From an uncultured Bacteroidales bacterium (lineage in GTDB: Bacteria > Bacteroidota > Bacteroidia > Bacteroidales > Bacteroidaceae): DNA of 64,000 nucleotides. The notes below the pieces were generated by a model that was not told the DNA's origin, searched no databases, and worked only from the letters and a program-made list of their open reading frames with translations. The stretch covers positions 5,686 through 69,685 of the forward strand of contig CACYQI010000026.1 in assembly GCA_902776455.1 (NCBI GenBank), read 5' to 3'. The first letter of the stretch is position 1. Every line of letters begins with the position of its first letter. Positions 1,725-2,687 of this stretch are shown one piece after another. A program made the translations under genes and the position numbers.

Positions 1725-2687
1725 ATGAAATTGAACATCATCGTACTTGCCAAGCAAGTACCTGACACGCGCAATGTCGGGCCGGACGCTATGACGCCTG
1801 AAGGCACCGTCAATCGTAGCGCGTTGCCTGCTATCTTCAATCCCGAGGACCTCAACGCCCTCGAGCAGGCTTTGAGACTGAAAGACCAATTCCCCGGCAC
1901 AACCGTGACCGTCATCACGATGGGTCCAGGCCGAGCTGCCGAAGTGATTCGCGAAGCTATGTATCGCGGTGCCGACGGCGGCTATCTGCTCACTGACCGC
2001 GCTTTCGCAGGGGCCGACACCCTGGCTACAAGCTATGCCCTCGCCACTGCCATCAAGCATGTCTGCCCCAACGTCGATCTCATCATCGGCGGTCGTCAGG
2101 CCATCGACGGCGATACGGCTCAGGTAGGCCCGCAGGTGGCTGAGAAACTGGGCTTGAACCAGATAACGTATGTAGAGGAGATTATTTCCATTGACCATTC
2201 ACCATTGACCATTGACCATTGTACAACTTCCGAAGGCAGAGCAAGAAATGGTCAATGGTCAATGGTCAATGGTCAATCTATAATTGTCAAGCGCCACATC
2301 GACGGCGGCGTAGAGACTGTGGAAAGCCCGCTGCCTTGCGTCCTGACCGTCAACGGAAGCGCTGCTCCCTGTCGTCCGAGGAACGTGAAGCGCGTGATGA
2401 AGTACAAGCGTTGCCTCGCTCCTATGGAGTTGCCTCAGGGCACAGGCTTCGGCGACCTGCCTTATGCTGCAGAATACGAGAAGAAGCCTTACCTGAAGCT
2501 CGGTCAGTTGAGCTGTGCCGACGTGAATGCCGACCTGCAGCAATGCGGTCTGGCCGGCTCGCCAACGAAGGTGAAGAACGTGGAGAACATCGTCTTCAAG
2601 GCAAAGGAGAGCAAGGTCTTGACCGGCAGCGACGAGGACGTGAACGGCTTAATTAAGGAATTGTTGAACGAAAGGCTAATTGGATAA
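1725..2687 (+). CDS. etfB: electron transfer flavoprotein subunit beta, carrying a 90-nt in-frame hairpin repeat
   Basis: MKLNIIVLAKQVPDTRNV... is a typical EtfB N-terminus, and etfA follows 7 nt downstream. Confidence 0.9.
   Translation: MKLNIIVLAKQVPDTRNVGPDAMTPEGTVNRSALPAIFNPEDLNALEQALRLKDQFPGTTVTVITMGPGRAAEVIREAMYRGADGGYLLTDRAFAGADTLATSYALATAIKHVCPNVDLIIGGRQAIDGDTAQVGPQVAEKLGLNQITYVEEIISIDHSPLTIDHCTTSEGRARNGQWSMVNGQSIIVKRHIDGGVETVESPLPCVLTVNGSAAPCRPRNVKRVMKYKRCLAPMELPQGTGFGDLPYAAEYEKKPYLKLGQLSCADVNADLQQCGLAGSPTKVKNVENIVFKAKESKVLTGSDEDVNGLIKELLNERLIG
2188..2277. repeat. in-frame heptamer-word hairpin (arms 2188-2220 and 2247-2277)
   Basis: (ccattga)n on the left arm and its reverse complement (tcaatgg)n on the right arm, with a 26-nt loop. 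Translated as SIDHSPLTIDHCTTSEGRARNGQWSMVNGQ. Confidence 0.9.

What the first reader, a model, noticed from the sequence alone, without database searches (positions are those of the whole stretch)
2188..2277. 90-nt heptamer hairpin read through inside etfB
The sequence ccattgaccattcaccattgaccattgaccatt (2188-2220) is followed 26 nt later by its reverse complement aatggtcaatggtcaatggtcaatggtcaat (2247-2277). The 90-nt unit is translated as SIDHSPLTIDHCTTSEGRARNGQWSMVNGQ, between ...ITYVEEI and IIVKRHIDGGVETVE.... From my memory of EtfB alignments these two blocks are nearly contiguous, and the protein (320 aa) is longer than typical EtfB. The insertion status is an inference. The hairpin and the open frame are directly visible in the sequence.
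Basis: partly seen in the sequence, partly recalled or inferred. Interest (0 to 1): 0.8.

Follow-up and report, generated by a model that had tools for sequence, protein, structure and literature searches.

The report
Translated heptamer-repeat hairpin element inside etfB
A 90-base hairpin whose stems are tandem 7-base repeats has replaced a short surface turn of the essential-type metabolic protein EtfB in a Prevotella-like gut or rumen bacterium and is read through as 30 extra amino acids. It is one copy of a dispersed family of such hairpins that sit in frame in many unrelated genes, much like the palindromic elements of Rickettsia.

Summary
Window 2190-2220 and 2247-2277 form a 31-nt inverted repeat, 97% complementary, with a 26-nt loop. 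Both arms are about 4.5 tandem heptamers (CCATTGA / TCAATGG). The hairpin lies in frame in etfB (1725-2687).

It is an insertion. Most Bacteroidales EtfB proteins are about 295 aa with a 5-6 residue beta-turn here. In the window 5 native codons are replaced by 30, a net gain of 25 aa.

It is not unique. Hairpins with the same arms and a related loop lie inside at least 8 other long ORFs on metagenome contigs, all read as ..IDHSPLTIDH..NGQWSMVNGQ... The window holds three more heptamer hairpins with other units, two of them in-frame insertions.

Close relatives carry at least 8 different repeat or palindrome inserts at this same EtfB turn, plus decayed remnants. The only arm mismatch (C2200) removes an in-frame TGA. 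Across 9 copies, 0 of 22 in-frame units keep TGA, against 36 of 37 out-of-frame units.

Best reading: a MITE/RPE-like palindromic element that is translated and tolerated.

Unexplained: the element is 0-2/119 nt different between strains whose etfB differs at 30% of third codon positions. Also, hairpins of four different arm families share a loop motif, GCGCAGC/GCGTAGC. The mobilising enzyme is unknown.

The parts
1725..2687 (+). Host gene etfB (electron transfer flavoprotein beta subunit / FixA), 320 aa.
   Evidence: ORF. PF01012 and EtfB names. PDB matches. The protein is identical to NCBI MBR4516373.1.
2188..2221 (+). Left arm: (CCATTGA) x 4.9, read as S-IDHSPLTIDH-C.
2200..2200 (+). The only arm mismatch (C instead of G; CCATTCA). 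It turns an in-frame TGA into TCA (Ser159). Strain L213 has T here (TTA, Leu).
   Evidence: Sequence and frame. Phase statistics. L213.
2221..2246 (+). Loop of 26 nt, gtacaacttccgaaggcagagcaaga. Positions 2235-2242 (GGCAGAGC) are a degenerate form of the family loop motif GCGCAGC next to the right arm.
2247..2277 (+). Right arm: (AATGGTC) x 4.4, read as NGQWSMVNGQ. It is stop-free in all three frames.
   Evidence: plus the sequence.
2175..2293 (+). Block that is nucleotide-identical to strain L081 and differs at 2 positions from L213, although etfB is only 87-90% identical overall.
5606..5698 (+). Second heptamer hairpin (TGAAGAA / TCTTCAC), in frame in the acyl-CoA dehydrogenase gene 4212-5972. 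Its arms and loop are homologous to the etfB insert of relatives L082/L083.
44985..45068 (-). Third heptamer hairpin (GGGGCAA / CTTGCCC), in frame in the conserved 748-aa protein gene 43978-46224. It is absent from all but the two closest homologues.
59577..59672 (+). Fourth heptamer hairpin (ATAATTC / GAATTAT). It is intergenic, starting directly after the stop codon (which ends at 59576) of the ORF annotated here, without a family search, as the efflux membrane-fusion gene, and lying upstream of the pump gene. Its loop carries GCGTAGC at 59630.

Best explanation
The hairpin is one copy of a dispersed family of about 90-bp palindromic repeat elements. Each has two inverted arms of about 4.5 tandem heptamers around a 20-30-nt loop. 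These elements populate the genomes of a clade of Prevotella-like Bacteroidales. This copy has replaced the 5-codon tip of a beta-hairpin turn of EtfB. It is transcribed and translated with the gene and adds about 25-30 residues of probably disordered surface loop.

Shown here: the element is an insertion. The same element type occurs in frame in many unrelated ORFs. Relatives carry other repeat or palindrome elements, or their decay products, at the same turn. Reading-frame integrity is maintained by point changes exactly where the repeat would give an in-frame TGA.

Inferred: the elements spread as non-autonomous, selfish DNA (MITE / REP / RPE-like), or by recombination between strains. They persist in coding DNA only where a surface loop tolerates them, and they are later eroded by deletion between the arms. 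The enzyme that moves them and the insertion chemistry are unknown; no target-site duplication was seen and native codons are lost.
For: Insertion status. EtfB homologues of 82-99% identity differ in length (295-327 aa) only at this turn. The closest insert-free relative examined (P0048/L209, 97% aa identity) has EEILS-ITNGK-ITVKRH. The closest genome loci also lack an insert.

Dispersed family. A metagenome scan for the arm 19-mer returned 120 loci. Eight hairpin copies lie in ORFs open for 85-873 aa (seven of them 398 aa or more), and a ninth copy (L106) also has an open frame. All are read in the same way, and their loops align with the window loop. The window's acdh hairpin is homologous in both arms and loop to the etfB insert of L082, so one element type sits in two different genes.

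Other hairpins in the window. Of 5 long inverted repeats in 64 kb, 4 are heptamer hairpins with 31-34-nt arms and 22-31-nt loops. Two of them are lineage-specific in-frame insertions.

Translation. The TGA triplet is kept in 0 of 22 in-frame units but in 36 of 37 out-of-frame units.

Tolerated site. AlphaFold places the insert between strands 145-157 and 185-192, with pLDDT below 50 for residues 161-179. The PDB alignment places it in a 3-residue turn.

Decay series. ILEVKNEERRTKNK...TLHSSLVV (37 aa) goes to ILEVKSELHPSLVV (14 aa) and then to ILEVKNSSLVV, which in L210 is the mini-palindrome GAAGTGAAGAACTCTTCACTC. L088 has an eroded left arm.

Not an artefact. The same insert appears in at least 13 protein variants from independent assemblies.
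Against: No transposase or RAYT-like gene was seen among the 10 window proteins scanned. No target-site duplication is visible, and insertion goes with loss of 5-15 native codons, which is unlike classical cut-and-paste MITEs. Only one copy of this arm type occurs in the 64-kb window, so within-genome copy number is unknown. The element is far more conserved between strains than neutral DNA should be, and its loop motif is shared across arm families. Both facts suggest constraint or an active recognition site rather than inert junk. At least 8 different inserts at one turn is more than simple tolerance obviously predicts.
Confidence: 0.62

Rival explanations
1. The hairpin is a functional nucleic-acid element kept by selection. 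It could be an RNA stem-loop in the etfB-etfA-acdh transcript affecting stability, processing or translation pacing. It could also be a DNA hairpin or cruciform bound or cut by a protein at the loop motif. On this view its coding capacity is a side effect. This is compatible with an origin as a mobile element.
For: Between the window and strains L081 and L213, third codon positions differ at 87/289 and 90/289 outside the insert but at 0/32 inside it. The longest identical run in 3.7 kb is 2175-2293, which is exactly the element. The second longest covers another palindrome at 4129-4208. The strict loop motif GCG[CT]AGC occurs in 8 of 28 heptamer hairpins, from 4 different arm families, against 0.14 expected. 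By eye, about 9 of 11 copies have the motif in the same orientation relative to the gene. The fourth hairpin lies between two genes of an operon.
Against: Most relatives lack the element or carry unrelated sequences at the site. Related copies decay or are deleted with the gene intact (L088, L210). The third hairpin is more variable than its flanks in one close strain, with 5/136 differences against 2.6% overall. The one arm change in L213 (2262 A to C) is uncompensated. There is no Rfam match and no terminator-like tail.
Confidence: 0.22
2. The hairpin arose in place. Replication slippage amplified a local heptamer, and template switching between strands copied the array in inverted orientation. 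No mobile element is involved.
For: Period-7 arrays are the commonest short-period arrays in this clade: 38 in 870 kb, 13 of them in the window, against 5 or fewer each for periods 5, 6, 10, 11 and 12. Copy number of a 9-nt array at this same turn varies between strains, giving 16, 19 and 22 aa. The right arm runs in phase into native-like TGTCAAG, and the native flank reads CGTCAAG CGTCACA. Over-representation of heptameric repeats in bacteria is known and has been ascribed to polymerase slippage (PMC4692102).
Against: The same arms together with a homologous, non-repetitive loop occur in at least 8 unrelated ORFs. The TCTTCAC-type element with its own loop occurs in both etfB (L082) and acdh (window). 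In-place growth does not explain shared loops.
Confidence: 0.08
3. The 90 nt are present in DNA but do not end up in the protein, because of RNA excision or ribosomal bypass of the hairpin.
For: A very stable hairpin (-51 kcal/mol) whose length is a multiple of 3 could in principle be hopped over or excised without a frameshift.
Against: Stop codons are avoided precisely in the translated phase in all 9 ORF copies, which would be unnecessary if the segment were skipped. There is no Rfam intron or ribozyme match. The aa changes seen in the insert are ordinary missense changes.
Confidence: 0.04
4. The hairpin is an assembly or library artefact (fold-back chimera).
For: Perfect palindromes are a known product of some library preparations and assemblers.
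Against: The same insert appears in independent assemblies from different samples with diverged flanks (L081, L213, 13 protein variants). The frame is kept, and the element has one selected mismatch.
Confidence: 0.01

Closest known systems
Rickettsia palindromic elements (RPEs)
   Same: Both are families of short palindromic repeats inserted in frame into many unrelated, apparently functional protein genes, and each family encodes a recognisable peptide. In both cases the insertions are thought to sit at structurally permissive positions (PMC10969869, PMC3733652).
   Different: RPEs are about 100-150 bp, occur in an obligate intracellular alphaproteobacterium, and do not have stems built of tandem heptamers. 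No sequence relation was tested or is expected. In this case several different families hit one and the same turn.
REP / REPIN / BIME elements (GTAG- or CGTC-tagged palindromes moved by RAYT transposases)
   Same: Both are short hairpin repeats, often between genes of an operon, that form several families per genome. Intragenic copies are known, including different REPs at about the same site of recB in two Xanthomonas species (PMC3733652). A short conserved motif lies next to the stem.
   Different: REPs are 20-40 bp, mostly extragenic, and carry the tag at the outer end of the stem. In these hairpins the arms are 31-34 nt of tandem heptamers and the conserved motif (GCGCAGC/GCGTAGC) lies inside the loop. 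No RAYT gene was found in what was scanned.
Heptameric tandem repeats (cyanobacterial STRR; TAACTGA of Beggiatoaceae, cyanobacteria and some Bacteroidetes; GGGAATC of Xanthomonas)
   Same: The unit length is 7. Arrays typically have about 4 units, sit near gene starts or ends, are occasionally intragenic or inverted, and vary in length and sequence between close relatives (PMC4679880, PMC4692102).
   Different: Those are mainly single direct arrays of one genome-typical unit in intergenic DNA. The window's elements are paired inverted arrays around a conserved loop, with many different units, and are frequently translated.
MITEs carrying internal or terminal repeats, e.g. BrickBuilt of Porphyromonas gingivalis
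   Same: Both are non-autonomous repeat elements of Bacteroidales that combine inverted repeats with tandem repeats (PMC4596501; title and abstract only).
   Different: BrickBuilt has inverted ends around a minisatellite. In the window's elements the inverted ends themselves are the tandem repeats. No target-site duplication is seen here.

Membership tests
EtfB / FixA (host gene) | The ETF domain (PF01012), homology to solved EtfB chains, and an adjacent etfA gene. | tested here: met
   PF01012 is precomputed for all homologues. The best PDB match is 6fah_B at E 6e-49. The etfA ORF lies at 2694-3716, and the neighbouring gene in related loci carries ETF and ETF_alpha domains.
In-frame palindromic elements (RPE-like) | A palindromic repeat family found in frame within unrelated ORFs and encoding a family-typical peptide. 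| tested here: met
   Nine copies have an open frame; seven of the eight copies whose spanning ORF was measured are open for 398-873 aa, and they read ..IDHSPLTIDH..NGQWSMVNGQ... Two further hairpin families are in frame in window genes.
In-frame palindromic elements (RPE-like) | The insertion lies at a structurally permissive, surface-exposed position. | tested here: inconclusive
   The PDB alignment places it in a 3-residue turn. The AlphaFold model has strands on both sides and pLDDT below 50 in the insert, but the model is only moderate overall (mean pLDDT 64.7).
MITE | Terminal inverted repeats, small size and no ORF of its own. | tested here: met
   31-nt arms within a 90-nt element.
MITE | A target-site duplication flanking the element. 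| tested here: not met
   Comparing filled with empty sites shows loss of 5 native codons in etfB and about 14 in acdh, with no direct repeat at the junctions.
MITE | Many copies within one genome and a cognate transposase with matching ends. | not testable with these tools
   Only 64 kb of this genome is available, and it holds one copy of this arm type. None of the 10 window proteins scanned is a transposase.
REP / REPIN | A 20-40-bp imperfect palindrome with a GTAG or CGTC tag at one outer end, mainly extragenic. | tested here: not met
   The arms are 31 nt of heptamers and this copy is intragenic. The conserved motif is in the loop, not at the outer end. Only the fourth hairpin's loop contains GTAG, within GCGTAGC.
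Heptameric simple-sequence repeat (STRR-like) | Head-to-tail copies of a 7-nt unit. | tested here: met
   TRF finds period 7 with 4.9 and 4.4 copies at 92% and 100% matches. Period 7 dominates the arrays of this clade.
Intrinsic terminator | A G+C-rich stem followed by a T run. | tested here: not met
   No terminator-like site was called at 2188-2290. The hairpin is followed by CTATAATTGTCAAG.
Any Rfam RNA family | A covariance-model match at the gathering score. | tested here: not met
   The window has four Rfam hits, none at any of the hairpins.

The most novel reading that the evidence does not exclude
The heptamer hairpins form one superfamily defined by a conserved loop site (GCGCAGC/GCGTAGC beside one arm). 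An as yet unidentified structure-specific enzyme recognises this site. The arms turn over rapidly by concerted heptamer evolution. The elements actively re-insert or home into existing hairpins and permissive turns. That would explain at least 8 different inserts at one EtfB turn, nesting of one hairpin inside another palindrome, and near-identity of the element between strains whose flanks differ at 30% of silent sites. This would be a new kind of mobile or maintained hairpin element in Bacteroidota, one that routinely writes new loops into housekeeping proteins.
Probability: 0.2. Interest if true: 0.8.

Novelty: new variant of a known kind. Interest (0 to 1): 0.6.

Why it matters
If confirmed, abundant gut and rumen Bacteroidales would join Rickettsia as organisms in which small palindromic repeats are routinely translated inside core metabolic enzymes. 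The system also has far more available genomes and strain diversity for studying how such elements insert, spread between strains and decay.

It gives a concrete case of stop-codon-phase selection acting on a repeat, which is strong evidence that the insert is translated.

It explains length-variable loops in Prevotella-type proteins and probably some contig breaks.

The hypervariable turn of etfB could serve as a strain marker.

The conserved loop motif and the unexpectedly slow divergence point to an enzyme or a function still to be found.

Tried and rejected
1. Searching the protein database with a consensus insert peptide returned only short spurious ORFs over CCATTGA arrays from cyanobacteria, Ignavibacteria and Niastella. 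It shows the heptamer is widespread as a direct array but says nothing about host genes.

2. I tested whether the native turn already encodes a conserved small hairpin that could act as a landing site or a scar. Four of the closest relatives fold well there (z -1.3 to -2.5). Over 59 Bacteroidales loci, however, the mean z against synonymous-codon shuffles is -0.25, so there is no general signal.

3. No target-site duplication was found at the etfB or acdh junctions. Possible 3-5-nt microhomologies (GTCAA, TCA) were seen, but there are too few junctions to test them.

4. A neighbour-joining tree of masked EtfB proteins did not resolve whether each insert family is monophyletic. The families appear scattered, but the tree rests on few substitutions and the gene looks mosaic.

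5. The terminator and sigma-70 scans gave nothing meaningful. A TGGTCA-17-TATAAT match in the right arm is at chance level and is not the Bacteroidetes promoter type.

6. The Rfam search found nothing at the hairpins.

7. Seven full-text literature searches found no description of such elements in Prevotella or Bacteroidales. The library is incomplete, for example it lacks the 2008 paper on small dispersed repeats of Nostoc.

8. The genome-collection scan returned mostly insert-free species representatives, so the window's own species genome was not recovered.

Full report
**Observation**

The window sequence shows (CCATTGA)x4.9 at 2188-2221 and (AATGGTC)x4.4 at 2247-2277. Together they form an inverted repeat of 31 nt, 97% complementary, with a 26-nt spacer. 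The arm 19-mer occurs only here in the window, and none of 100 shuffles produced a match. The stretch folds at -51 kcal/mol as RNA and -30 kcal/mol as DNA, with z about -6.8. It lies in frame in ORF 1725-2687, a 320-aa EtfB. The local context is ...NQITYVEEII-S-IDHSPLTIDHCTTSEGRARNGQWSMVNGQ-S-IIVKRHIDGG.

**It is an insertion**

- In solved EtfB chains the two flanking blocks are 3 residues apart.
- Among the 120 best homologues (81-99% identity), lengths run from 293 to 327 aa, apart from one 473-aa outlier. In the 37 sequences aligned, essentially all of this variation falls at this one turn, apart from a few terminal differences.
- The insert-free form, ILS(L/C)xDGKITV, is the rule in the closest Bacteroidales genome loci inspected.
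- Compared with the closest insert-free relative examined (L209, 97% aa identity), the window has exchanged 5 codons (ITNGK) for 30.
- AlphaFold puts the extra residues between two strands, with pLDDT below 50 for residues 161-179. The model is only moderate overall.

**It is one of a class**

An unbiased scan of the window for long inverted repeats gives five. Four are heptamer hairpins with the same build, 31-34-nt arms and 22-31-nt loops, but with different units:

- etfB (CCATTGA).
- acyl-CoA dehydrogenase, 5606-5698 (TGAAGAA / TCTTCAC).
- A conserved 748-aa protein, 44985-45068 (GGGGCAA).
- An intergenic copy directly after a stop codon, 59577-59672 (ATAATTC).

The acdh and 748-aa copies are also lineage-specific in-frame insertions that replace native residues.

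Period 7 is the dominant short-period array length in this clade. The window has 13 such arrays in 64 kb, against 25 in about 800 kb of related loci.

**It belongs to a dispersed family**

A metagenome scan for the arm 19-mer returned 120 loci, mostly single direct arrays from varied sources. About a dozen are hairpins. Eight of these lie in ORFs open for 85-873 aa, seven of them 398 aa or more, and all are read as ..IDHSPLTIDH..loop..NGQWSMVNGQ... Their loops align with the window loop...TTCGGAAAGCGCAGCCAACAATGG against CTTCCGAAGGCAGAGCAAGAAATGG.

The window's acdh hairpin matches the etfB insert of relatives L082/L083 in arms and in most loop positions. So the same element type is present in two different genes. 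This is the main argument for spread by copying rather than growth in place.

**It is translated**

The unit CCATTGA gives an in-frame TGA every third unit. In the window the single arm mismatch (C2200, CCATTCA) sits exactly there, and the array ends (CATTGT) where the next TGA would fall. Over nine copies with an open frame, 0 of 22 in-frame units keep TGA while 36 of 37 out-of-frame units do. Strain L213 has TTA at the same codon.

**The turn is a recurrent site with turnover**

At this turn the relatives carry a range of inserts:

- SPLKGE-type short palindromes.
- The TCTTCAC heptamer hairpin.
- A GTTGAC-type hairpin.
- G/C-rich hairpins.
- Direct 9-nt arrays (TLE/TLK/TLG, with 16, 19 or 22 aa).
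- GAAGTTAAG arrays.

Decay products are also present. L088 has lost most of one arm. L210 keeps only GAAGTGAAGAACTCTTCACTC and is back at the native 11-aa length. The linker of acdh shows the same behaviour, with other palindromes in L084 and L085. The third hairpin of the window is flanked by CTCCCTC...GAGGGAG, so it appears to be nested inside a palindrome of the SPLKG type.

**Unexplained conservation**

The window, L081 and L213 share the insert, yet their etfB genes are only 87-90% identical. Third codon positions differ at 87/289 and 90/289 outside the insert and at 0/32 inside it. The longest identical run in a 3.7-kb comparison is 2175-2293, which is exactly the element. The second longest covers another palindrome at 4129-4208. 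L213 differs at 2 of 119 positions, one at the unpaired C2200 and one uncompensated in the right arm.

For the third hairpin the picture is mixed: 1/136 differences against a 92.6%-identical strain, but 5/136 against a 97.4%-identical one. The EtfB alleles also look mosaic, with N- and C-terminal variants combined with different inserts. Taken together this fits recent spread of the element through a recombining population, or repeated precise insertion. Selection at the nucleotide level cannot be excluded.

**Loop motif**

Eight of 28 heptamer hairpins collected from all loci carry GCG[CT]AGC (on either strand) in the loop, against 0.14 expected from shuffled loops. These come from four different arm families (CCATTGA, CATAGTT, ATAATTC, TGAAAGT). 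The window's etfB copy has a degenerate version, GGCAGAGC. The TCTTCAC family has a different loop.

**Comparison with known systems**

The behaviour matches Rickettsia palindromic elements and intragenic REPs (PMC10969869, PMC3733652). The 7-nt arrays match the known over-representation of heptameric repeats (PMC4692102, PMC4679880). The following features are not covered by those descriptions, or by seven literature searches:

- Stems built of tandem heptamers.
- A motif located in the loop.
- Replacement of native codons without a target-site duplication.
- Many different inserts at one turn.
- Occurrence in Prevotella-like Bacteroidales.

No Rfam family, terminator or transposase was found.

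**Verdict**

It is best explained as a translated, tolerated copy of a MITE/RPE-like palindromic element. It is a new variant of a known kind, with two open points: how it moves, and why it diverges so slowly.

Noticed in passing
window 1643-1666, 27528-27551, 32909-32943; L082 4790-4825; L085 4911-4940: T-rich heptamer arrays end exactly 6 nt upstream of a Bacteroidetes-type -7 box (TAnnTTTG) in three window promoters, including the etfB promoter and a tRNA promoter. Relatives carry arrays of different heptamers in the corresponding region just upstream of etfB. With 44 motif occurrences in 128 kb, the fixed spacing is far from chance.
   Followed up: partly
window 43814-43846 and 43882-43911: Two direct, non-complementary heptamer arrays (AATTCAA, GTAAATC) are translated near the C-terminus of a BspA-type LRR protein (ORF 42178-43965).
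   Followed up: no
window 3777-4151 with 3727-3752 and 4176-4200; L083 8712-9178; L210 4786-5163: A 124-aa DUF559 (Vsr-like nuclease fold) gene sits between etfA and acdh, flanked by CCCTCTCCC-NNN-GGGAGAGGG palindromes, and is absent from other relatives. In L083 a 125-aa 23S-rRNA-IVP/bAvd gene flanked by inverted 8-mer arrays (GAAGTTAAG) sits just downstream of acdh. L210 has such a gene between etfA and acdh, but its flanks were not inspected. These look like small gene cassettes with repeat ends, and could be autonomous relatives or mobilisers of the hairpins.
   Followed up: partly
L084 8314-8451, L085 8421-8537, window 3717-3760: A REP-like element, GCCTCACCCC..CCTCTCC-NNN-GGAGAGG, occurs intergenically in the window and inside the acdh linker of relatives. 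In L085 the replacement keeps the native length exactly.
   Followed up: partly
window 8770-13507 versus 54891-58162: Two BspA-type LRR genes, together with upstream blocks of 22-mer, 10-mer and 8-9-mer arrays, are inverted copies of each other (80-89% over 200-450 nt). They bracket about 41 kb and could be a substrate for inversion.
   Followed up: no
L098 2311-2410 and 2812-2937: Two heptamer hairpins of different arm families (CATAGTT and CCATTGA) lie about 500 nt apart on one metagenome contig, the second within a 581-aa ORF. Both have the loop motif GCTGCGC on the same strand.
   Followed up: no
window 28717-28886 (-), 37846-37891 (-), 32969-33041, 33242-33313: Rfam finds a 6S-Bacteroidales RNA (130 bits), an Acido-Lenti-1 RNA match just above its threshold (38 against 37 bits), and two tRNAs.
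   Followed up: no
window 38622-38766: A 48-nt unit is repeated 3 times, each unit holding a perfect palindrome ATGTTGCGTTGCCAACGCAACAT.
   Followed up: no
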